The notes under the pieces: model-generated | Told to the model about the DNA's origin: nothing | The model's input: the letters and a program-made list of their open reading frames with translations, nothing else | The model's database searches: none | Translations under genes and position numbers: made by a program | In this document: piece after piece, positions 14,256-57,680 of the stretch | Numbering within the stretch: the first letter of the stretch is position 1 | Layout of the letters: each line of letters opens with the position of its first letter | Assembly (NCBI GenBank): GCA_965219585.1 | Contig: CBDCOA010000003.1 | Span: forward strand, 1,233,375-1,297,374 | From: Bryobacterales bacterium | GTDB taxonomy: Bacteria > Acidobacteriota > Terriglobia > Bryobacterales > UBA6623 | Direction of reading: 5' to 3' | DNA: 64,000 nucleotides

Positions 14256-15146
14256 CTACCAGCCGACCTCGGTGCCGGCGATCTCTTCCAGCCACTTCGC
14301 CACGACCCAGTTGTCTCCGTCCGGATAGCGCGAAATGCCAGCCTGGAACATCTCATAGGCCGCGCTGGTGGCGAACATCGCGGCTCCGGCTTCGCGCGCC
14401 ACGCTCATCGAGATCCCGAGGTCCTTGTACATGGTCCCGATATGGCTGCCTGTGTTTTCGAAGCTGCGGTCCAGCAGGTGCCGCGCGCAGGTCTCTATCA
14501 ACGGGCTGCCGGCCGCGCTCGAGCGAATCACATCGAAGAGCGTCTCGCCCTTGACGCCGGATTTCGCCCCCAGCACGAAGGCCTCGAACGTCGCGGCGAA
14601 GATGCACCCGATCAGCGACTGCAAGGAAGCCTTGACGACCTGGCCCTGCCCGATCTGCTCGCCCACATGGAAGGTCCGCTTGGAAATCGCTTCCAAGGCC
14701 GCGCGGTTGCGCTCGAGCACCTCGGTCCGGCCGGCGGCCATCAGAGTCAGCGCTCCCCCGTCGGCCCCGGCCTTGCCGCCGCTGACGGGCGAGTCGATCA
14801 AGTCGATGCCGCGCTCGGCCAGCGGCTCTTCCAGCGCCTGCACCTCGGACGGCAGGATGGTGGCCGTGACGATCACGGTCGATCCTGGGGAGAGGCCTTC
14901 CACGGCTCCCCGCTCCCCGAAGAGCGCGTCTTTCGCCTGGCCGCCGTTCATGACCATCACGAAGAGCGCGTCCGAGCTCGCCCCCGCCTCAGCACAGCTC
15001 CGGGCGGCAACGCCGCCCGCGGCTCGCAGGAGCGCTGCCCGCTCGGCTCGCAGATCGAAGCCGATCGTCGGGAAGCCGCCCCTCGCCAAGTTCCGGGCGA
15101 TACCGATGCCCATTTGCCCGAGGCCGATTACGCCGACTGGTTGCAT
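14256..15146 (-). CDS. NAD(P)-dependent 3-hydroxyisobutyrate / tartronate-semialdehyde-reductase-family dehydrogenase
   Basis: N-terminal dinucleotide fold VGVIGLGQMGIGIARNL plus a 6-phosphogluconate-dehydrogenase-like NAD-binding and C-terminal domain. I chose the ATG at 15146 (MQPVGVIGLG); the ORF-track start at 15179 is a TTG. Confidence 0.85.
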   Translation of the reverse strand: MQPVGVIGLGQMGIGIARNLARGGFPTIGFDLRAERAALLRAAGGVAARSCAEAGASSDALFVMVMNGGQAKDALFGERGAVEGLSPGSTVIVTATILPSEVQALEEPLAERGIDLIDSPVSGGKAGADGGALTLMAAGRTEVLERNRAALEAISKRTFHVGEQIGQGQVVKASLQSLIGCIFAATFEAFVLGAKSGVKGETLFDVIRSSAAGSPLIETCARHLLDRSFENTGSHIGTMYKDLGISMSVAREAGAAMFATSAAYEMFQAGISRYPDGDNWVVAKWLEEIAGTEVGW

Positions 15147-15189: not shown

Positions 15190-17021
15190 CTAGACTCCTT
15201 GTCTAGGCGTAGCGTTTACAGATGAGTCAAGTTTACGCGGCGATCGGCTGGCCCTCCCAGAGTCGGTCGATCTCGCGATCGAAGCGCTGTACGGCCTTCT
15301 GCAGGGGCGTGGGGTCGGAACCGCCGGCATCGAAGACCACCGACAGAGACGGGCGCAGCACGCGGGCGTAGGTGCGCTGGAAGCACAGCGCCGTGCGCAG
15401 GCCCTGCTCGGTCACACGGTAGCGGCGCGTGCGCGGGATGCGCTCGATCAGGCCCCGCAAGCGCAGTCGCCGCAGGTCGTAGGTCATGCGGCCTGCGCCC
15501 CACGCCTCCGCGCTACTGCCCAGCAGGGGCGCGACCCGCTCGCGCAACTGCCGGTGGGTGAAACCGTGCGGCAGCAGCCGGAAGCTCGCTAGGGACGCCA
15601 GCAGGGCCTGCACGCGGCGGTCCCCGAAGCGTAGCGACGCTGCCCGCTGCCCCTCGATCTGGGCCGCCGCTTGGAGTCGCTCGAAGCGCTCGGCTCCCAG
15701 CGTGCAGTCGTGGCTGAGGCGTTCGACGCACAGCAGGCGTCGGTTGGCTTGGAAGCCGATCTTTTTCAGATGCTCGAGGTTGCCCAGCCGACGCCCGACT
15801 CCGAAGTCGTAGCTGTCGTTGATCGTGGTCTCGGTGCGCAGCGCGCGCCCTTCTTTGAAATATTGCTTGATGCGGGTGCTCTTGTAGTCGAAATGCAGCG
15901 AGGGGTCCACCCCGGCGGTGATCACGCGCGTGCGGAAGCGTGACGGCGTGCGCTTGCTAACCCGGCGCTGGAACACCAGCTGGACGTGGTCGGGCCGGCC
16001 GATGTCGAGGTTCTCGCGGATGACCTCCTCGAAGAACATGCGCCCCTGCTGCGGGCGGTCGAAGACCTGCGTGAGCGAAAACTCCGCCTGCAGGATGGAG
16101 AGTTGGTAGCGCAGCCCCGCGGCGCGGTCTGCGGCCGTGAACGGATGCGGCAGCCGCGCCAGCCACTTGCGCGCCAAGGCGTCGATCTTGGCGGCGCTGA
16201 GCTGGCGGCAGATCTGTGCCAGCCGCTCGGGATCCTCGCAACTCAGGATGCCGTTGTCGAGCGCTTCGAAGGCAATGCCCTGCTTGGCCAGCTGGCGCTT
16301 GACGTACTCGTGACCGTTAATGCAAACCTTGGCGCCGTACGGGAAATACGAGCAGAATTTGAGGAAGAAGGGGCCGAAGTCGTCATCGACGGCGTAGAAA
16401 TAGTAGGCGTTGGGCAGGGCTGTGGAGAAGGCCAGCTCGGGCGAGCGGCGGCCGGTGGCGGGATCGGTCTCGGCCTGGGTGCGCAGCACGCGCGCCTTCT
16501 CCTGCGCCTTGCCGATGTACAGCACGCCCTCGCCGCCGCGCCACTGCCGCAGGTAGGCCTGGGTGCGCTCGTCCTTGCGCTCGCCTCTCTCGAAGCGGAT
16601 CAAGTCGATGTTGCCCTCGCGGGCGAAGGCCTCGATGGCGGCCACGAAGCTGCGCGTCATCGGGGCCATCAGGGCCGGGGAGGGCACCGGGCAGCCGCGC
16701 ACTTGGCGGAAGAACCAGGCCGCCCCGCCCGGGGTCTGCAGCAGCGGCTGGTAGAGATTGAGGTAGAGCCGGTCGACGCACTCGACCTCCAGGGTGACAT
16801 GCTCGGAGATGGCTTCGGCGACGTTGCGTGCTACAGTCATGGCGCGGGTTCGGGGCGATGGGCTCCCCACACAACCGTCATGATACGGACACTGTCGCCT
16901 AGGCGACCATACGGCGGCCCCGGCCGCAGAGCGGAGCAGCGTCCGGAGCCCGCACTCCATCGCGAGTATGACCACGCAGCTTCGAACCGAGTCTCGTCGG
17001 TCTGAGGCTCAGCCTCGCTAG
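15190..17021 (-). mobile_element. copy 1 of an unclassified 1,832-bp single-ORF repeated element (IS-like)
   Basis: Collinear with 53553-55384. The flanks are unrelated. The element is bounded by CTAG at both ends, and one ORF fills about 88% of it. Confidence 0.65.
15233..16840 (-). CDS. 535-aa protein of the repeated element (putative transposase, family not recognised)
   Basis: I took the start at ATG 16840 (MTVARNVAEAI...). There are 17 substitutions and no indels against the second copy. The C-terminal segment MTYDLRRLRLRGLIERIP.TRRYRVTEQG looks like a winged helix. Possible acidic triad candidates are YAVDDD, EALDNG and ALRTET (speculative). Confidence 0.6.
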   Translation of the reverse strand: MTVARNVAEAISEHVTLEVECVDRLYLNLYQPLLQTPGGAAWFFRQVRGCPVPSPALMAPMTRSFVAAIEAFAREGNIDLIRFERGERKDERTQAYLRQWRGGEGVLYIGKAQEKARVLRTQAETDPATGRRSPELAFSTALPNAYYFYAVDDDFGPFFLKFCSYFPYGAKVCINGHEYVKRQLAKQGIAFEALDNGILSCEDPERLAQICRQLSAAKIDALARKWLARLPHPFTAADRAAGLRYQLSILQAEFSLTQVFDRPQQGRMFFEEVIRENLDIGRPDHVQLVFQRRVSKRTPSRFRTRVITAGVDPSLHFDYKSTRIKQYFKEGRALRTETTINDSYDFGVGRRLGNLEHLKKIGFQANRRLLCVERLSHDCTLGAERFERLQAAAQIEGQRAASLRFGDRRVQALLASLASFRLLPHGFTHRQLRERVAPLLGSSAEAWGAGRMTYDLRRLRLRGLIERIPRTRRYRVTEQGLRTALCFQRTYARVLRPSLSVVFDAGGSDPTPLQKAVQRFDREIDRLWEGQPIAA

Positions 17022-17060: not shown

Positions 17061-19023
17061 TAACCCGAAGTTCCGGGCCAGAAGCGAAGGGAACTCCTTG
17101 TAATGCATTGCCTTATCGGGATTTGGAGTTGTCCTGCACTGGGAACGTTCGGACCAGTTCAAGCGCACGCTTCTGCAAAGCGCTCGGTTCCGTCAGCCGC
17201 TCCACGGTGGGCCCGTTGGCGTCGTCCTGCAGGCGGCATTGATGGCGACAGCGCGTGCCCAGCACCTGCAATAACGTCGAGAAGCTGTGCAGTTCCAAGC
17301 CCTGCGCCGTCTTGCGACGGTTCTTTTTCGCTTGCACTTCCTGGCGCGGCTTCGCCGCCGCGACCGGATCCCGCCGCGCCTGCCAGCCCGCCAAGTCCTC
17401 GTCTTCGAACAGCAGCTCGGCCAAGGCTTGCCGCAGGTGCCACTCCACGTAGTACGCCAGCAGGCACAGCAGCAGGTGGGCCCGCACGCGCTGCTCGCTG
17501 CGATGGCGGATCGGGCGCACCTGCAAGTCCACGGTCTTGAGGCAGCGGAAGGCGCTCTCGACGCGCGTTAGCTGCTTGTAGCTGCGCACCACATCTTCCG
17601 CTGCCAGATCGCTCTGGCTGGCACGGATCACGTACAGGCCGTCCAAGGCCGCCTCGCGCTCGATCGAGTGCGCGTCCCGGCAGAACTGCAAGCTGCCGTC
17701 TGCGATCTGGGTCTGGAAGTGCTTGGCGACCTTGGAACGCTGCTTGGCGCGCCCCACCTTCTCGGCGATGGCGGCCTCCAGCAGCGGCTTCTTGGTGCGC
17801 CGCGCCACTTCGCGCTGGATGCGCGCCAGGTCTTGCTCGGCGGCCTCCAGCAGCGCTTCGCGCTTGTGCCGGCGGCGCTCGGCCAAGGCCGGGTTGCAGC
17901 ACACGATGAGGCGCTCGTCGGGGTACAGCGGGGAGTGGATCTCGGCTAGGTTGCGCTCGTCGAAGAGCGACATCTGGACGCTGCCTTGCTCGGCCAGGCG
18001 GCGGATGTCGTGGTGGCGCAGGGCCGAGATCCAGCCCAGGCCGGGGTAGTCGCGCAGGGTCTGGATCTGGGTGTCGGTGAGCATGCCGCGGTCGCCCACC
18101 AGCACCAGCCGCTGGAGGCCGAAATGCTGGCGCAGGGCCTGGACCTGGTCCGGCACCGTGGCCGGATCGGCGGTGTTGCCGGGATAGGCCCGCACGGCCA
18201 GCGGGCGACCCTGCCGGTCGGCCAGCACGCCGTAGACCACGATCGGTCGGCCGCGCTTGCCGTCGCGGCTGTAGCCGTAGCGCATCAAGGGGCAGCTGTG
18301 GCCTTCGTAGTAGCTGCTGGAGACGTCGTACAGCACCTGGGCATCGTCTTGCAGGTGGCGCTTGGCGAGGCGTTGCTCGATGCGGTCCTGGCGCTGCAGC
18401 AGCCAATCCATGGCCTGGTAGAGGGCGTCTTCGTCGGCGTCCTGCAAGTCGAGTTCCTCGGCCAGAGTGGTGGCGTGCCAGAGGCGGGTGGTGGCGAGCT
18501 TGGAGGCCGGGTGGAGCAGGCGCTGGGCAATCATGGCCAGCACGGCGGAGCGCTGGGGGGAGGAAGCACGATCGAGCAATTTGGGCAGGCCGAGGCGGCG
18601 GCAGGCCTCCAGCACGAGTTCGACATGGCCGTGGGGGCGGGAGCTGACGATGGTGAAGGCTTGGTCGAGGCTGACGAGGGGCTGGTTCTTGAGCAGCTTG
18701 CGGAGGGCGTTGATCTTGGCGGGGGGCCAGCTGGAGAGATTGGCAAGGGTGCGCTTACGGACCTTAGAGCCTTCGCGCCAGCCTTCGCGGAGGAGGATGG
18801 CTGGGGGTGAGGAGCGGTTGGGGACGACTTCCACATACATGGGAATACTATATCACAGATTACGGCATAAAATCAAGCAATAAAAACATCAAACAATCAC
18901 CACAAAAGTCCATTACATGGGAACAATAGACACTCCGCAAGCGCTTGGAAAGCAATCTAGGCCCTTTGGAATCAACGAGTTAGCGCGAGATCAAGCGACA
19001 AAATCGCCCGGAACTTCGGTCTA
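17061..19023 (-). mobile_element. IS1634-family insertion sequence, apparently complete (about 1.96 kb)
   Basis: 18-nt imperfect terminal inverted repeats: TAACCCGAAGTTCCGGGC at 17061-17078, and 19006-19023 whose reverse complement is TAGACCGAAGTTCCGGGC (16/18). They flank an intact transposase ORF and a low-GC 5' leader. Confidence 0.8.
17113..18840 (-). CDS. IS1634-family (IS4 superfamily) transposase
   Basis: 575 aa. The N-terminus MYVEVVPNRSSPPAILLREGWREGSKVRKRTLANLS is the characteristic IS1634-type opening. DDE region includes VLVGDRGM. Confidence 0.85.
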   Translation of the reverse strand: MYVEVVPNRSSPPAILLREGWREGSKVRKRTLANLSSWPPAKINALRKLLKNQPLVSLDQAFTIVSSRPHGHVELVLEACRRLGLPKLLDRASSPQRSAVLAMIAQRLLHPASKLATTRLWHATTLAEELDLQDADEDALYQAMDWLLQRQDRIEQRLAKRHLQDDAQVLYDVSSSYYEGHSCPLMRYGYSRDGKRGRPIVVYGVLADRQGRPLAVRAYPGNTADPATVPDQVQALRQHFGLQRLVLVGDRGMLTDTQIQTLRDYPGLGWISALRHHDIRRLAEQGSVQMSLFDERNLAEIHSPLYPDERLIVCCNPALAERRRHKREALLEAAEQDLARIQREVARRTKKPLLEAAIAEKVGRAKQRSKVAKHFQTQIADGSLQFCRDAHSIEREAALDGLYVIRASQSDLAAEDVVRSYKQLTRVESAFRCLKTVDLQVRPIRHRSEQRVRAHLLLCLLAYYVEWHLRQALAELLFEDEDLAGWQARRDPVAAAKPRQEVQAKKNRRKTAQGLELHSFSTLLQVLGTRCRHQCRLQDDANGPTVERLTEPSALQKRALELVRTFPVQDNSKSR

Positions 19024-24569: not shown

Positions 24570-24658
24570 GCTGGAGTGGCGGAATTGGCAGACGCACTGG
24601 ACTCAAAATCCAGCGCCCCTTACCGGGCGTGAGGGTTCGACCCCCTCCTCCAGCACCA
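24570..24658 (+). tRNA. tRNA-Leu (anticodon CAA), type II with long variable arm, CCA encoded
   Basis: Folded by hand. Acceptor GCTGGAG / CTCCAGC, anticodon stem CTGGA/TCCAG with loop CTCAAAA, long variable arm, T-arm GAGGG-TTCGACC-CCCTC, discriminator A plus CCA. Confidence 0.9.
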
Positions 24659-53296: not shown

Positions 53297-53552
53297 GATT
53301 CCAGAGTTCGGAGCGGTTTCCGGCCAACCGCGAACACAATACCGCGCAGGACTTGCCAGTCCCAACTGCGGATACGATTCCTGTTCAGAGGGCGACGGTT
53401 TCAAGCGACGCTTCACAGCAGTGGTTCGGTCTGTGGCTACGGAGGCCGCCACTCAAGAGACCCCTGTCGCCTGTACGGCCCACAAACGAATGACGCTTGG
53501 AAGCCCGCTGGTTCCCGCTCGCGCGCCTTCGCGGGCCTGAGGCTCGGCCTCC

Positions 53553-55384
53553 CTAGATTCCTTGTCTAAGCGTAGCGTTTACGGATGAGTCAAGTTCACG
53601 CGGCGATCGGCTGGCCCTCCCAGAGGCGGTCGATCTCGCGGTCGAAGCGCTGCACGGCCTTCTGCAGGGGCGTGGGGTCGGAAGCGCCGGTGTCGAACAC
53701 CACCGACAGGGACGGGCGCAGCACGCGGGCGTAGGTGCGCTGGAAGCACAGCGCTGTGCGCAGGCCCTGCTCGGTCACGCGGTAGCGGCGCGTGTGGGGG
53801 ATGCGTTCGATCAGCCCGCGCAAGCGCAGACGCCGCAGGTCGTAGGTCATGCGACCCGCTCCCCACGCCTCCGCGCTGCTGCCCAGCAGGGGCGCGACCC
53901 GCTCGCGCAACTGCCGGTGGGTGAAACCGTGCGGCAGCAGCCGGAAGGCCGCCAAGGACGCCAGCAGGGCCTGCACGCGGCGGTCCCCGAAGCGCAGCGA
54001 CGCTGCCCGCTGCCCCGCGATCCGTGCCGCCGCTTGGAGTTGCTCGAAGCGCTCGGCTCCCAGCGTGCAGTCGTGGCTGAGGCGTTCGACGCACAGCAGG
54101 CGTCGGTTGGCTTGGAAGCCGATCTTTTGCAGACTCTCGAGGTTGCCCAGCCGACGCCCGACTCCGAAGTCGTAGCTGTCGTTGATCGTGGTTTCGGTGC
54201 GCAGCGCGCGCCCCTCTTTGAAGTATTGCTTGATGCGGGTCTTCTTGTAGTCGAAGTGCAGCGATGGATCCACCCCGGCGGTGATCACGCGCGTGCGGAA
54301 GCGTGACGGCGTGCGCTTGCTGACCCGGCGCTGGAACACCAGCTGGACATGGTCGGGCCGGCCGATGTCAAGGTTCTCGCGGATGACCTGCTCGAAGAAC
54401 ATGCGCCCCTGCTGCGGCCGGTCGAAGACCTGCGTGAGCGAGAACTCCGCCTGCAGGATGGAGAGTTGGTAGCGCAGCCCCGCGGCGCGGTCTGCGGCCG
54501 TGAACGGATGCGGCAGCCGCGCCAGCCACTTGCGTGCCAAGGCGTCGATCTTGGCGGCGCTGAGCTGGCGGCAGATCTGCGCCAGCCGCTGCGGGTCGTC
54601 GCAGCTGAGGATGCCGTTGTCGAGCGCTTCGAAGGCAATGCCCTGCTTGGCCAGCTGGCGCTTGACGTACTCGTGGCCGTTGATGCAGAGCTTGGCGTTG
54701 TACGGGAAATAGGAGCAGAACTTGAGGAAGAAGGGGCCGAAGTCGTCATCGACGGCGTAGAAGTAGTAGGCGTTGGGCAGGGCCGTGGAGAAGGCCAGCT
54801 CGGGCGAGCGGCGGCCCGTGGCCGGATCGGTCTCGGCCTGGGTGCGCAGCACGCGCGCCTTCTCCTGCGCCTTGCCGATGTACAGCACGCCCTCGCCGCC
54901 GCGCCATTGCCGCAGGTAGGCCTGGGTGCGCTCGTCCTTGCGCTCGCCTCTCTCGAAGCGGATCAAGTCGATGTTGCCCTCGCGGGCGAAGGCCTCGATG
55001 GCGGCTACGAAGCTGCGCGTCATCGGGGCCATCAGGGCCGGGGAGGGCACCGGGCAGCCGCGCACTTGGCGGAAGAACCAGGCCGCCCCGCCCGGGGTCT
55101 GCAGCAGCGGCTGGTAGACATTGAGGTAGAGGCGGTCGCAGCATTCGACCTCCAGGGTGACGTGTTCGGAGATGGCTTCGGCGACGTTGCGTGCTACAGT
55201 CATGGCGCGGGTTCGGGGCGATGGGCTCCCCACAGAACCGTCATGATACGGGCACTGTCGCCTAGGCGACCATACGGCGGCTCCGGCCGCAGAGCGGAGC
55301 AGCGTCCGGAACCCGCACTCCATCCCGAGTATGACCACGCAGCTTCGAACCGAGTCTCGTCGGTCTGAGGCTCAGCCTCGCTAG
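53553..55384 (-). mobile_element. copy 2 of the unclassified 1,832-bp single-ORF repeated element
   Basis: Same length and orientation as copy 1 and bounded CTAG...CTAG. Its 20-nt left flank resembles its own right end at 18/20 positions. Confidence 0.65.
53596..55203 (-). CDS. 535-aa protein of the repeated element (putative transposase, family not recognised)
   Basis: Intact ORF that differs from the copy-1 protein by 17 substitutions and no indels (counted by eye). Confidence 0.6.
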   Translation of the reverse strand: MTVARNVAEAISEHVTLEVECCDRLYLNVYQPLLQTPGGAAWFFRQVRGCPVPSPALMAPMTRSFVAAIEAFAREGNIDLIRFERGERKDERTQAYLRQWRGGEGVLYIGKAQEKARVLRTQAETDPATGRRSPELAFSTALPNAYYFYAVDDDFGPFFLKFCSYFPYNAKLCINGHEYVKRQLAKQGIAFEALDNGILSCDDPQRLAQICRQLSAAKIDALARKWLARLPHPFTAADRAAGLRYQLSILQAEFSLTQVFDRPQQGRMFFEQVIRENLDIGRPDHVQLVFQRRVSKRTPSRFRTRVITAGVDPSLHFDYKKTRIKQYFKEGRALRTETTINDSYDFGVGRRLGNLESLQKIGFQANRRLLCVERLSHDCTLGAERFEQLQAAARIAGQRAASLRFGDRRVQALLASLAAFRLLPHGFTHRQLRERVAPLLGSSAEAWGAGRMTYDLRRLRLRGLIERIPHTRRYRVTEQGLRTALCFQRTYARVLRPSLSVVFDTGASDPTPLQKAVQRFDREIDRLWEGQPIAA

Positions 55385-55470
55385 ATATGAGATGCCTCAC
55401 TAAGGTCTCGGCCCATGACACCACTAGATATGAGATGCCTCACTAAGGTCTCGGCCCATGACACCACTAG
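55385..55470 (+). repeat. perfect tandem duplication, 2 x 43 bp
   Basis: atatgagatgcctcactaaggtctcggcccatgacaccactag occurs twice, starting at the first base after the right CTAG of copy 2. Each unit itself ends in CTAG. Confidence 0.9.
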
Positions 55471-55971: not shown

Positions 55972-57327
55972 TCACGCGGCGGCCTGTAGCCGTGACTCGG
56001 TTCGCCAGGCCCAGAAATCCTCGTAGCGCCCGCCCAAGATGCAGGCGCGCAGGGCGAGGATCCCCTCGGCACCATCCTTGGTCCAGTACATGCCGGACTG
56101 CTTGAGGCGGCCCACGACGCTCTTGCAGCCCGCCTCGACCACGCCGGAGCCGATCTGCAAGCCTTGGGCGCGGAACTCGGCGTAGCGCATGCGTGCGCGG
56201 TTGGTGGTGATGTATGGCACGGCCTTGGCGGCTGGCTCGCAGTGGCCGGCATGCGCGCGCAGGGTCGCCAGCACACTGTCCAGAGCCCCGGCCTTGAGTT
56301 CCTCGCAGCGCGCTTCGGCCCAGACCTCGGCGCTATCCCGGTCGGCGGGGAAGAGGGCCCGGGCGACTTCCCACATCCTTTCCGAGACGTGGAAGAAGTC
56401 CACGATCTGAATCGCGCCGGGGAACATCTCCGTGGCCGCGGCCCAGATCCATTTCGCGCCGTCGCCGAGGATGACCCGGCGTGGTGCCTGCGGGAAGCCG
56501 CGCCGCTCGGCCTCGCGGCGCAGGCGTTGGGTGAAGGCGGCCGGGGCCGGATCGGTGTCGCGCGCGGCAGCGCTGTCAATCGCCGCCGAATAGGTGACCG
56601 AGCCCTCGTCGCAGACCGGCCGTCCGTCTTGGTCGAACTGATCTGCGGTCCAGATCACGACCAGCTTCGCCTCGCGCGTGGAGGCCGAGCCGTCGGGCTG
56701 CTTGCCGGGCCGGCCGACCAGCTCCGCCGGGCGCATCGGCACGCCGGTGCCGTCCACGCCCAGATACATGGTGGCAGCGGCGGGGGGTTCGGCGGCAAAC
56801 ACCGCCGCCCGCTCGGCGGCGGCCACCTCGCGCCCCAGCGCCTCGGCGACGCGCTCGACACGCTTGGCATTGACGCGCACGGCGGCCAACTCGTCCAGCA
56901 AGTCGCTGGCGGTCGCGAAGCTGGCCACTGCGGCAGCCGAGCCGGTCATGCGGGTGACGGCCGGGGACAGGCTGGTGGCGGCCATGCCCAGCGCTTGGTC
57001 GCGCGGGAACCAGCCCCGCCCGCAGGGACGGCAATGGTAGTAGGCGCGCTCGATGGTGACTGGCCCCAGAGCGGTCTCGAAGGTCTTGCGATGGCGGCCG
57101 GCGAAGCGCGCCGGGTGCCCGCAGGAGCAGGGCTGGGTGGGGGACTGGCCGTCGCAGTGGTCGGCGTTCAGACGCCGCTCGACCGCCCGTGCGGCCAACT
57201 GCAGGGCGCTGCGCCGCACACAGGTCTCGACCGCCTCGAAGTCGAGTTGGTCGACGGCCCCGGGCGCTACGAGGCGGGCGATCTCGGCTTCCAGTGCGGG
57301 GGCGAACTCGTGCTGGCAGGCTTTTTT
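55972..57327 (-). CDS. ISKra4-family transposase, catalytic part (orfB frame, reached by -1 frameshift)
   Basis: Blocks ...HCRPCG.G..P.D, YLGVDGTGVPM, ILGDGAKWIW, QIVDFFHVSE and GLQIGSGVVEAGCKSVVG.RLKQSGMYW are typical of ISKra4/ISLre2-like transposases. This frame opens exactly after a TAA at 57330-57328, i.e. at the slippery run. Confidence 0.75.
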   Translation of the reverse strand, partial: KKACQHEFAPALEAEIARLVAPGAVDQLDFEAVETCVRRSALQLAARAVERRLNADHCDGQSPTQPCSCGHPARFAGRHRKTFETALGPVTIERAYYHCRPCGRGWFPRDQALGMAATSLSPAVTRMTGSAAAVASFATASDLLDELAAVRVNAKRVERVAEALGREVAAAERAAVFAAEPPAAATMYLGVDGTGVPMRPAELVGRPGKQPDGSASTREAKLVVIWTADQFDQDGRPVCDEGSVTYSAAIDSAAARDTDPAPAAFTQRLRREAERRGFPQAPRRVILGDGAKWIWAAATEMFPGAIQIVDFFHVSERMWEVARALFPADRDSAEVWAEARCEELKAGALDSVLATLRAHAGHCEPAAKAVPYITTNRARMRYAEFRAQGLQIGSGVVEAGCKSVVGRLKQSGMYWTKDGAEGILALRACILGGRYEDFWAWRTESRLQAAA

Positions 57328-57680
57328 TTAACCGCGCTGGTGCTGGGCTTGAGCTGGGCTTGGCAGAGCTCGTCGCTGACGGCGATCAGGTCCGCGATGA
57401 GGCGTCGCAGGCGCTGGCACTCAGCGATCTGGGCCTGGGTGGCGGCGACCTGCTCGGCGGGGATCGAGCGGCTGCGGGTCTTGCCGTTGACCGACCAGGT
57501 GAGCAGCCAGTAGGGGCCGTGGCCGCGGTGCTGCTTGTCGGCACAGAAGCACTCGGGTCGGCCGCAGCGGCGGTAGTTCTGCACCAGCGAGCCGGGGCGC
57601 AAATCGCCGATGGCGGCCAGTTGGCGGCGGAGTTCGTCGCGGCGGGCGGAGAGGGCGGAGAGATCAGGCGGGCTGGGCAT
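57267..57680 (-). CDS. ISKra4-family transposase, N-terminal part (orfA)
   Basis: 137 aa with the Cys/His block PGSLVQNYRRCGRPECFCADKQHRGHGPYWLLTWSVNGKT. ATG 57680 has the SD AAGGGAG upstream. Confidence 0.7.
   Translation of the reverse strand: MPSPPDLSALSARRDELRRQLAAIGDLRPGSLVQNYRRCGRPECFCADKQHRGHGPYWLLTWSVNGKTRSRSIPAEQVAATQAQIAECQRLRRLIADLIAVSDELCQAQLKPSTSAVKKKPASTSSPPHWKPRSPAS
57321..57329 (-). promoter_or_regulatory. A AAA AAG slippery site (A8G run) for programmed -1 frameshifting between orfA and orfB
   Basis: The minus strand reads GTT AAA AAA AAG CCT in the orfA frame. The orfB frame is -1 relative to orfA. Confidence 0.6.

What the first reader, a model, noticed from the sequence alone, without database searches (positions are those of the whole stretch)
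15190..17021. Unclassified 1,832-bp single-ORF repeated element: CTAG...CTAG ends, no terminal inverted repeats, hairpin at one end
- Two collinear copies (15190-17021 and 53553-55384) have identical length and sharp boundaries with unrelated flanks.
- Each encodes one intact 535-aa protein. The two proteins differ by 17 substitutions and no indels, so both appear to be under selection and are not a recent duplication.
- I cannot place the protein in any IS family I know. It has no HTH-plus-DDE layout I recognise, no serine/tyrosine recombinase motifs, no HUH motif and no RuvC/Zn-finger TnpB pattern.
- It ends in a winged-helix-like MTYDLRRLRLRGLIERIP.TRRYRVTEQG segment. It has possible acidic residues in YAVDDD / EALDNG / ALRTET.
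- The element ends share only the palindromic tetranucleotide CTAG.
- The ORF-upstream end carries a perfect hairpin GAGGCT-c-AGCCTC (17004-17016; 55367-55379).
- A 14-bp palindrome GTCGCCTAGGCGAC lies upstream of the start codon in both copies.
Basis: seen in the sequence. Interest (0 to 1): 0.7.

Follow-up and report, generated by a model that had tools for sequence, protein, structure and literature searches.

The report
New insertion-sequence family, unclassified transposase
The repeat is an active, very widespread bacterial jumping gene that inserts at the sequence CTAG and encodes a 535-amino-acid protein matching no known transposase family or solved structure, so it may use a new kind of DNA-moving enzyme.

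Summary
There are two collinear 1,832-bp copies, 95.4% identical with no indels. Each has an intact 535-aa ORF under purifying selection (dN/dS about 0.13).

It is an autonomous insertion sequence of an unannotated family:
- At least 10,931 protein clusters at 50% identity, found in at least 8 phyla and called "hypothetical protein" everywhere.
- Copies within one genome are often 100% identical at different sites.
- 95–105-bp ORF-less mini-elements carrying the same ends occur in 33 metagenome contigs.
- A near-empty site shows a simple insertion into one CTNG tetranucleotide, leaving CTA on both sides.

The ends are asymmetric, with no inverted repeats:
- The upstream end is CTA(A/G)CGAGGCTnnGCCTCAGACCGACGAG, whose hairpin stem covaries.
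- The downstream end is a 45-nt module, AAACTTGACTCA-N20-TCAAGGAnTCTAG.

The protein has a C-terminal PadR/MarR-like winged helix. Its roughly 380-aa N-terminal region matches nothing in Pfam, NCBIfam or the PDB by sequence. A confident model (pLDDT 90) also has no structural neighbour among known transposase folds.

The 5' leader forms a covariation-supported multi-stem structure that hides the ribosome-binding site. It is absent from Rfam.

The catalytic chemistry is unknown.

The parts
15190..17021 (-). It comprises the element core (15194-17018) plus a CTA repeat on each side (window 15191-15193 and 17019-17021) and one target base (15190).
   Evidence: Boundaries are defined by comparison with 64 related loci and a near-empty site.
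15233..16840 (-). ORF of 535 aa (ATG at 16840, stop at 15233-15235), the putative transposase. Residues about 1-380 form a beta-rich region of unknown fold, with D23, E114, Y147, N175, N196, E253, Y327, R335, E337 and D345 invariant. Residues about 385-500 form a PadR/MarR-like winged helix.
16993..17021 (-). Upstream (gene-proximal) end, read on the minus strand as CTA-GCGAGGCTGAGCCTCAGACCGACGAG. It contains the hairpin/palindrome at 17004-17016.
   Evidence: The motif is present at the same place in 70 of 82 loci. The stem covaries, GAGGC/GCCTC versus GGGGC/GCCCC. An exact search finds it only at the two copies in the window.
16841..16960 (-). 5' leader just upstream of the ATG. It is a family-wide multi-stem structure in which the outer stem pairs with the Shine-Dalgarno region. 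In the window copies the outer stem and the SD are partly degenerate.
15190..15232 (-). Downstream end module (43 nt here), read on the minus strand as ACTTGACTCA-N-GACAAGGAGT-CTAG. It includes the terminal inverted repeat CTAGAC...GTCTAG (15190-15206).
53553..55384 (-). Copy B, with the same architecture: ORF 53596-55203, core 53557-55381, hairpin 55367-55379, palindrome 55257-55270.
53537..53552 (-). Solo upstream-end-like hairpin (GAGGCCGAGCCTCAG) directly abutting the CTAG at the downstream end of copy B. This is the junction arrangement downstream end-CTAG-upstream end.
   Evidence: The same arrangement occurs in L007, L004/L005 and L041.
55381..55466 (.). Perfect 43-bp tandem duplication, each unit starting with CTAG, directly abutting the upstream end of copy B.

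Best explanation
It is an autonomous insertion sequence of a family not represented in Pfam, NCBIfam, PHROGs, PADLOC, Rfam or the PDB, and not found in four full-text literature searches (ISfinder could not be queried).

Shown:
- It is mobile and currently active in other genomes.
- It is a simple insertion into a CTAG (CTAR) tetranucleotide, preferring A at positions -5 and -4 upstream. After insertion CTA lies on both sides.
- Its two ends are different from each other. Each has a subterminal hairpin and there are no inverted repeats.
- About 29 nt of the upstream end plus about 45 nt of the downstream end are enough in cis, because ORF-less mini-elements with only these parts have spread.

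Inferred:
- The single 535-aa protein is the transposase or recombinase and acts in trans.
- Its C-terminal winged helix reads the palindromic end motifs.
- Its N-terminal roughly 380 residues, with invariant D23, E114, E253, E337, D345, Y147, Y327 and near-invariant D152 and H177, carry out catalysis on a fold unlike those of known transposases.
- Breakage and joining most likely happen at the two edges of the CTA trinucleotide. That could be either a 3-nt staggered cut with repair, or a conservative exchange between a downstream end-CTA-upstream end junction and a target CTA.
- The structured 5' leader pairs with the ribosome-binding site and keeps translation of the protein low.
For: Mobility:
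- 588 confirmed hits in one-genome-per-species contigs from Acidobacteriota, Pseudomonadota, Actinomycetota, Planctomycetota, Chloroflexota, Gemmatimonadota, Verrucomicrobiota and Myxococcota, often several per genome.
- Within-genome copies are 100% identical at different sites in five genomes.
- Many members sit on contigs of element size, and one contig is exactly CTAG...CTAG at 1,832 bp.

Boundaries and target:
- Flanks diverge exactly at CTA|...|CTAG in 64 loci.
- Flank profile: A at -5 in 35 of 63 sites and at -4 in 44 of 63.
- Near-empty site: GGACATT-CTCG-ACTCGC versus GGACATT-CTA[element]CTAG-ATTCGC.
- A divergent branch still ends in CAAGAATCTA, followed by A or G.

Action in trans:
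- 33 metagenome contigs carry 95-105-bp mini-elements made of the upstream end plus the downstream end. One such family has at least 6 different flanks.
- Mini-elements also sit in tandem with full copies.

Protein:
- dN/dS is 0.13.
- At least 10,931 clusters at 50% identity, with uniform length of 531-542 aa.
- No family hit of any kind.
- The model has pLDDT 90.2 and pTM 0.80. Its best PDB match has E = 5e-3 and TM no higher than 0.16. Only the winged helix finds relatives.
- hhalign against the two DDE-type transposases in the window gives probability 0.2% or less.

Leader:
- Mean folding z-score is -3.6.
- The covariance model hits just 5' of the ATG in nearly all loci.
- The outer stem is 91% paired, with 7 of 12 pairs changed on both sides. 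Covariation is 0.151 against 0.091 for shuffles, reached by 0 of 500 shuffles.
Against: - No biochemical or genetic test exists, and the catalytic residues and chemistry are guesses.
- ISfinder could not be queried.
- The empty site comes from an 86%-identical homologous region and reads CTCG, not CTAG.
- The junction data cannot distinguish a 2-bp duplication, a 3-bp duplication or no duplication.
- The window's own two copies are 4.6% diverged and have a degenerate leader (z = -0.3 and -1.6, no model hit at E <= 0.01). Their current activity is therefore unproven.
Confidence: 0.8

Rival explanations
1. It is a classical DDE (RNase H-fold) cut-and-paste IS, related to IS630/Tc1 or IS5/Harbinger elements. 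These also target CTAG or TNA and duplicate TA or 3 bp. On this view the transposase has diverged beyond recognition.
For: The target is CTAG, with TA or CTA repeated on both sides. Several invariant acidic residues are present. No orientation bias is seen relative to flank GC skew.
Against: No DDE family is hit by 25 divergent members in Pfam or NCBIfam. A pLDDT-90 model finds no integrase or transposase in the PDB by Foldseek. hhalign against two DDE-type transposases gives probability 0.2% or less. The ends are completely asymmetric with no inverted repeats. The predicted core is an antiparallel beta-meander, not the beta-beta-beta-alpha-beta-alpha-beta order of RNase H.
Confidence: 0.12
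2. It moves as single-stranded DNA, like IS200/IS605 or IS91. The enzyme recognises hairpins at the two different ends, cuts after a fixed short motif (CTA) at both the left flank and the right end, and inserts 3' of CTA with no duplication.
For: Subterminal hairpins lie at both ends, and the upstream-end stem covaries. The ends are asymmetric. The same trinucleotide sits at the left flank and the right terminus. Hairpin-only miniature derivatives exist, resembling palindrome-associated elements. The empty site is compatible with no duplication. Weak structural echoes are to alpha+beta two-layer saddles.
Against: There is no HUH motif and no Y1 or Y2 transposase hit. The PDB holds TnpA and Rep folds, and none was found. 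There is no orientation bias: 30 of 59 flanks have positive skew, and 10 of 25 among strongly skewed flanks. That proxy is crude.
Confidence: 0.15
3. The ORF is not the transposase. On this view it is a DNA-binding regulator or passenger gene, and the element is moved by a host enzyme or by an enzyme from another element.
For: The only recognisable domain is a winged-helix DNA-binding domain. Some pipelines label homologues as ArsR or PadR regulators. Both window copies sit next to other IS transposase genes.
Against: The same single ORF travels with the same ends across at least 8 phyla, with no second conserved gene in most branches. Element-sized contigs hold only this gene. The roughly 380-aa N-terminal region is far more conserved than a passenger would need, with invariant D, E, Y and H residues. 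Neighbouring IS types differ from locus to locus.
Confidence: 0.05

Closest known systems
IS607 family (serine-recombinase transposase) and IS110/IS1111 family (DEDD transposase). Comparison from my own knowledge of the literature, not from a tool.
   Same: Single-enzyme elements whose two ends are not inverted repeats. They are flanked on both sides by the same very short 'core' sequence rather than a repair-generated duplication of variable sequence. They are thought to pass through a joined right end-core-left end junction. IS110 elements also carry a structured non-coding RNA in the end next to the gene.
   Different: No serine-recombinase or DEDD/RuvC-like domain is detectable by sequence or fold. 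The core here is CTA within CTAG. The leader has short tetraloop-capped hairpins rather than large programmable loops. It is dispensable in cis, because the mini-elements lack it.
IS630/Tc1-mariner, and the IS5-group and PIF/Harbinger elements. Comparison from my own knowledge.
   Same: Preference for CTAG or TNA targets, with TA or a 3-bp sequence repeated on both sides.
   Different: Those elements have terminal inverted repeats and RNase H-fold DDE/DDD transposases. Neither is present here.
IS200/IS605 and their miniature palindrome-associated derivatives. Comparison from my own knowledge.
   Same: Asymmetric ends with subterminal hairpins. A fixed short motif at the left flank and the right terminus. 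Tiny non-autonomous derivatives made of the end hairpins. In IS200, a leader stem-loop that sequesters the ribosome-binding site.
   Different: There is no HUH/Y1 transposase: the protein here is 535 aa rather than about 150 aa and has a different predicted fold. No replication-strand bias was detected.

Membership tests
Insertion sequence (generic) | Discrete DNA segment present at different sites, with sharp and constant ends | tested here: met
   Two copies in the window. Sets of 3-5 analysed copies in each of six genomes, with unrelated flanks and identical ends.
Insertion sequence (generic) | An empty site exists, so the element is a simple insertion | tested here: met
   Caballeronia SBC2 (occupied) versus Burkholderia PAMC 26561 (unoccupied). 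The flanks are contiguous across a single CTNG. The homologue is 86% identical, so this is not an isogenic pair.
Insertion sequence (generic) | Encodes its own transposase | not testable with these tools
   Inferred from three things: the single conserved ORF, purifying selection on it, and ORF-less mini-elements that need a factor supplied in trans. There is no functional test.
IS630/Tc1-mariner or IS5/Harbinger (DDE) | RNase H-fold DDE/DDD transposase | tested here: not met
   No Pfam or NCBIfam hit for 25 members. No Foldseek hit in the PDB with a pLDDT-90 model.
IS630/Tc1-mariner or IS5/Harbinger (DDE) | Terminal inverted repeats | tested here: not met
   The end consensus sequences are unrelated to each other. 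No inverted repeats were found in the window.
IS630/Tc1-mariner or IS5/Harbinger (DDE) | TA or 3-bp target duplication at CTAG or TNA | tested here: inconclusive
   CTA is present on both sides and once in the empty site. This is compatible, but equally compatible with a shared recombination core or with no duplication at all.
IS200/IS605 | HUH Y1 transposase (about 150 aa) | tested here: not met
IS200/IS605 | Subterminal hairpins at different ends, and insertion next to a fixed short motif | tested here: met
IS200/IS605 | Strand (orientation) bias relative to replication | tested here: not met
   30 of 59 loci have positive flank GC skew in element orientation, p = 1.0. This is a crude proxy.
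IS110/IS1111 | DEDD (RuvC-like) transposase with a C-terminal Tnp domain | tested here: not met
IS110/IS1111 | Non-coding guide ('bridge') RNA with target- and donor-binding loops | tested here: inconclusive
   A structured leader exists. However it has only short capped hairpins, masks the RBS, is absent from the mobilised mini-elements and matches no Rfam family.
IS607 | Serine-recombinase transposase | tested here: not met
   No resolvase domain hit. No serine is invariant across the 114-sequence alignment.
IS91/ISCR/Helitron-like | HUH Y2 rolling-circle transposase | tested here: not met

The most novel reading that the evidence does not exclude
The protein founds a new catalytic class of transposase or recombinase, built on a fold not seen in any known DNA-rearranging enzyme. 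It cuts and joins at the edges of a CTA trinucleotide using asymmetric, hairpin-marked ends. It can also rewrite the element's outermost nucleotides during transposition. The evidence for that last point is one copy that differs from four otherwise identical or near-identical siblings (one has a single internal mismatch) only at its first and last base.
Probability: 0.4. Interest if true: 0.9.

Novelty: new variant of a known kind. Interest (0 to 1): 0.78.

Why it matters
Only a handful of enzyme classes are known to move DNA: DDE/RNase H, DEDD, HUH, serine recombinases, tyrosine recombinases and Cas1. Each new class has brought new biology and new genome-engineering tools.

This family has at least 10,931 clusters at 50% identity. 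It is spread across soil and sediment bacteria and is also present in cultured Burkholderia, Caballeronia, Rhodococcus and Mycobacterium. It is labelled "hypothetical protein" wherever a label was found (a few automatic labels say ArsR or PadR regulator). If ISfinder also lacks it, IS annotation that relies on known transposase families would be expected to miss these insertions and their 100-bp derivatives, and so undercount mobile DNA in exactly the genomes where the element is active.

It has a compact single-protein system, a short defined target (CTAG), small cis requirements (about 29 + 45 nt) and cultured hosts. That makes it directly testable.

Tried and rejected
Protein family and fold:
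- Pfam, NCBIfam, PHROGs and PADLOC on the window protein, plus Pfam and NCBIfam on 25 divergent members, gave only winged-helix-type weak hits.
- PDB sequence and profile searches found nothing.
- The first structure model, from a shallow alignment, was poor in residues 265-382. It was replaced by a 114-sequence alignment model.
- Foldseek against the PDB found no meaningful hit. Against viral BFVD it found only weak TBP-like hits.
- hhalign between the halves of the protein showed no internal repeat.

Empty sites and circular forms:
- Exact-protein look-ups of the window's flanking genes, to find an isogenic empty site, found nothing on record.
- An empty-site query built from the Burkholderia YI23 insertion showed all three related strains occupied.
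- The test for a circularly permuted element-sized contig found the contig collinear, not permuted.

Expression signals:
- I considered a junction promoter formed from the TTGAC in the downstream end plus a -10 in the upstream end. I rejected it because the spacing puts any -10 inside the downstream end, no conserved -10 is seen, and no sigma-70 consensus was found in the window element.
- The MAFFT alignment of the leaders mis-registered the variable hairpins. Those two hairpins remain unverified by covariation.

Motif resemblances:
- I considered Toprim (E...DxDxG plus a tyrosine on a winged helix, as in Spo11) and primase-polymerase (DxD, sxH, hD). These were not pursued as claims. The predicted topology is an antiparallel meander. 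Foldseek found no such proteins. Y454 fits the structural Y-x-x-L-x-x-L-x-x-x-G-L-I signature of PadR-type winged helices.

Literature: four full-text searches found no description.
Full report
**Observation**

The two segments 15190-17021 and 53553-55384 are each 1,832 bp. They align without gaps, with 84 mismatches (95.4% identity), and their flanks are unrelated from the first base outside CTAG.

Each carries an intact minus-strand ORF of 535 aa. The proteins differ at 17 residues. The 76 nucleotide differences in the ORF fall 11/11/54 by codon position, and dN/dS is about 0.13. Both copies have therefore evolved under purifying selection since they diverged.

**It is a mobile element, and a very common one**

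- A word-indexed search returned 8,000 homologues, which was its candidate cap. The top-listed hits are about 531-541 aa, unannotated, and often on contigs of about 1.8 kb.
- An exhaustive HMMER scan of 1.84 billion cluster representatives found 10,931 at E <= 1e-3.
- A scan of one genome per species gave 588 confirmed hits. They come from Acidobacteriota, Pseudomonadota, Actinomycetota, Planctomycetota, Chloroflexota, Gemmatimonadota, Verrucomicrobiota and Myxococcota. Up to seven of the 80 loci kept come from a single genome.
- In five genomes, copies at different sites are 100% identical over 1.8 kb, so the element is active now.
- One metagenome contig is exactly CTAG...CTAG and 1,832 bp, collinear with the window copies, with 86 and 99 mismatches to them.
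- The family also occurs on replicons of cultured Burkholderia, Caballeronia, Paraburkholderia, Rhodococcus and Mycobacterium. There it is annotated "hypothetical protein".

**Anatomy**

In gene orientation, 64 loci share one plan:

1. CTA.
2. An upstream end, (A/G)CGAGGCTnnGCCTCAGACCGACGAG. Its stem changes in a compensatory way in some lineages (GAGGC/GCCTC to GGGGC/GCCCC).
3. A leader of 139-313 nt, most often 160-180 nt.
4. An ORF of 531-538 aa.
5. A downstream end of 43-94 nt. Its last 45 nt are a fixed module, AAACTTGACTCA-N20-TCAAGGAnT, followed by CTA and then G.

The two ends are unrelated to each other, and there are no inverted repeats.

In window coordinates the element proper is 15194-17018 for copy A and 53557-55381 for copy B.

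**Target and junctions**

Upstream flanks prefer A at position -5 (35 of 63) and -4 (44 of 63). Downstream flanks show no preference after the G.

A homologous region in Burkholderia sp. PAMC 26561 is uninterrupted and reads GGACATT-CTCG-ACTCGCTTCGG. In Caballeronia sp. SBC2 the same flanks read GGACATT-CTA[element]CTAG-ATTCGCTTCGG. The element is therefore a simple insertion into a single tetranucleotide, and CTA ends up on both sides.

A 4-bp duplication is excluded. In many multi-copy lineages the left side reads CTAA in every copy, while the right side reads CTAG.

The data cannot separate three possibilities: a TA duplication, a CTA duplication, or no duplication (a shared core).

A very divergent branch (about 25-29% identity) still ends in ...CAAGAATCTA and is bounded by CTA on the left. 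The next flank base there is A or G. CTA-flanked insertion into CTAR is thus the hallmark of the whole family.

CTAG itself is under-represented in the window, with 103 observed against 208 expected.

**Non-autonomous derivatives and tandem junctions**

Two loci contain 93-bp and 116-bp mini-elements, made of just the upstream end fused to the downstream module. They sit in tandem with a full copy and share one CTA with it.

A pattern scan of metagenome contigs found 33 more. They are 95-105 bp, stand alone and have different flanks. One sequence family appears at six or more sites.

Three conclusions follow:
- About 29 + 45 nt suffice in cis.
- The protein acts in trans.
- The leader is not a cis-acting transposition signal.

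An arrangement of downstream end, CTAG, then an upstream-end-like sequence recurs next to copy B in the window (53537-53552) and in L007. This fits re-insertion at the CTAG that each insertion regenerates. It would also fit an integrated junction form.

**The protein**

Nothing is found in any of the following:
- Pfam, NCBIfam (which models the recognised IS families), PHROGs or PADLOC, whether for the window protein or for 25 members down to 31% identity.
- PDB sequence and profile searches.

The only exception is weak winged-helix hits for residues about 445-520.

After I seeded homologue searches from two distant branches, a 114-sequence alignment gave an AlphaFold2 model with mean pLDDT 90.2 and pTM 0.80.

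- Foldseek against 350,542 PDB chains gave no match better than E = 5e-3, with TM no higher than 0.16. MarR and ArsR repressors matched the C-terminus.
- No integrase or DDE, HUH, serine or tyrosine recombinase, Cas1 or IS110 structure appeared among the 50 best matches listed.
- The viral structure library gave only weak TBP-like saddle matches (E = 2.4e-4, TM 0.2-0.3).
- Profile comparison with the two classical transposases encoded next to the window copies (a DDE_Tnp_1 protein and a UPF0236/ISKra4-type protein) gave probabilities of 0.2% or less.

Invariant residues across the family are D23, E114, Y147, G156, P167, N175, N196, E253, F290, Y327, R335, E337, D345, Y454, L456 and G480. R24, D152, H177, K325 and K329 are nearly invariant.

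Y454, L456 and G463 fit the structural signature of PadR-type winged helices (my own knowledge). The candidate catalytic residues are therefore the acidic cluster plus Y147, Y327 and H177, all lying on predicted beta-strands of the N-terminal region.

**The leader**

Folded one by one, most leaders adopt the same architecture:
- A 10-13-bp outer stem, GGCUCCGGUCG...CGACCGGAGCC. Its 3' arm contains the GGAG Shine-Dalgarno sequence, 6-9 nt before the ATG.
- Three short hairpins enclosed by that stem.

Supporting numbers:
- Mean z-score against dinucleotide shuffles is -3.6 over 47 leaders. The sense strand is 2.6 kcal/mol more stable than the antisense strand on average.
- A covariance model finds the structure immediately 5' of the start codon in almost every locus, with E down to 1e-25. 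Antisense scores are far lower.
- Pair counting gives 91% pairing and 7 of 12 doubly changed pairs for the outer stem. The middle hairpin gives 90% pairing and 3 of 6.
- Overall covariation is 0.151 against 0.091 for shuffles, reached by 0 of 500 shuffles. All register-slid controls are lower.
- The other two hairpins were not aligned well enough to judge.

The structure is not in Rfam.

The most economical reading is translational masking of the transposase RBS, as in IS200 and IS10 (my own knowledge). A trans-acting RNA role is not excluded. It is disfavoured by the short capped hairpins and by the structure's absence from the mini-elements.

The window's two copies have a weakened outer stem, no GGAG, and fall below the model's threshold.

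**Mechanism**

What is shown:
- Insertion at CTAG.
- CTA on both sides of the insertion.
- Asymmetric ends bearing hairpins.
- Mobilisation in trans.
- Recent activity.

What is inferred:
- The protein is the enzyme.
- The winged helix reads the palindromic end motifs.
- Chemistry occurs at the edges of CTA.

One observation points to those edges. In a Terriglobia genome, one copy differs from its siblings at only two of 1,829 positions. Three siblings are identical and a fourth has one internal mismatch. The two positions are the base just after the left CTA and the base just before the right CTA. Chance placement on exactly those two positions is about 6e-7.

A single-strand, replication-fork-dependent mechanism is not supported by orientation relative to flank GC skew (30 of 59). 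That proxy is crude.

I rank the explanations as follows:
1. A novel-enzyme IS.
2. A hidden HUH-like enzyme.
3. A hidden DDE enzyme.
4. A passenger ORF.

**Comparison with known families**

- In behaviour, the element is closest to IS607 and IS110. Both have asymmetric ends and a short shared core on both sides.
- In target, it is closest to IS630 and IS5-type elements (CTAG, TA or 3 bp).
- In end anatomy, it is closest to IS200/IS605 (hairpins and miniature derivatives).

It fails the defining enzyme test for every one of these families. It is therefore an insertion sequence of a new family, possibly with a new class of transposase.

**Context in the window**

Copy A lies 44 bp upstream of a 3-hydroxyisobutyrate-dehydrogenase-like gene and next to a DDE_Tnp_1 transposase gene. 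Copy B lies between a Uma2 endonuclease gene and a UPF0236 transposase gene plus a DUF6788 gene. Both copies are therefore in IS-rich spots of an otherwise ordinary, 65% G+C chromosomal region.

Noticed in passing
L067 versus L072, L073, L074 and L079 (Terriglobia MAG CAWFIJ): L067 differs from its siblings at only two of 1,829 positions: the first base after the left CTA (G rather than A) and the base just before the right CTAG (A rather than T). L072, L073 and L074 are identical to each other, and L079 has one internal mismatch. This suggests the terminal nucleotides can be rewritten during transposition.
   Followed up: partly
window 55381-55466: A perfect 43-bp tandem duplication directly abuts the upstream end of copy B. 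Each unit begins with CTAG, giving three CTAGs spaced by an identical 39 nt. It may be a by-product of cleavage at a neighbouring CTAG.
   Followed up: no
window 53537-53552: A solo sequence resembling the element's upstream-end hairpin (GAGGCCGAGCCTCAG) directly follows the CTAG at the downstream end of copy B. The same junction-like arrangement is seen in L007 at 4645.
   Followed up: partly
L091 (metagenome contig Ga0187893_10154462): One miniature element is flanked by a 17-bp direct repeat (ACAAACTCTATACCCTA) instead of just CTA. This is an aberrant, long duplication.
   Followed up: no
L120-L123 (branch of P0351, about 25-29% identity): A divergent branch of the family carries a second, divergently transcribed 119-aa gene of the PF05635 family (23S_rRNA_IVP, four-helix bundle, the family that includes DGR Avd proteins). 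Its upstream end is AT-rich and has no GAGGC hairpin. It is still bounded by CTA on both sides.
   Followed up: partly
window 17113-18840 (-), 55972-57219 (-), 57267-57680 (-): Other mobile-element genes flank the two copies. A DDE_Tnp_1 (IS4/IS1634-like) transposase lies next to copy A. A UPF0236 (ISKra4-type) transposase and a DUF6788 protein lie next to copy B.
   Followed up: partly
window 16841-16960 and 55204-55323: The window's own leaders are degenerate versions of the family's structure. The outer stem has mismatches, there is no GGAG, the folding z-scores are -0.3 and -1.6, and the covariance model does not hit them at E <= 0.01. The ORFs are nevertheless intact.
   Followed up: partly
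window 15190-15232 relative to the gene at 14256-15146 (-): The downstream end of copy A contains the conserved TTGACT motif pointing outward. It lies 44 bp upstream of, and in the same orientation as, a 3-hydroxyisobutyrate-dehydrogenase-like gene. The insertion may therefore affect that gene's expression.
   Followed up: no
whole window: CTAG, the element's target, is half as frequent as base composition predicts (103 observed against 208 expected). A tRNA gene lies at 24570-24655.
   Followed up: no
H18, Paraburkholderia phytofirmans OLGA172 plasmid NZ_CP014580.1, 252805-254058: A very distant homologue (22% identity over residues 2-407) is annotated as an ArsR-family regulator. It could be a divergent or domesticated relative.
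   Followed up: no
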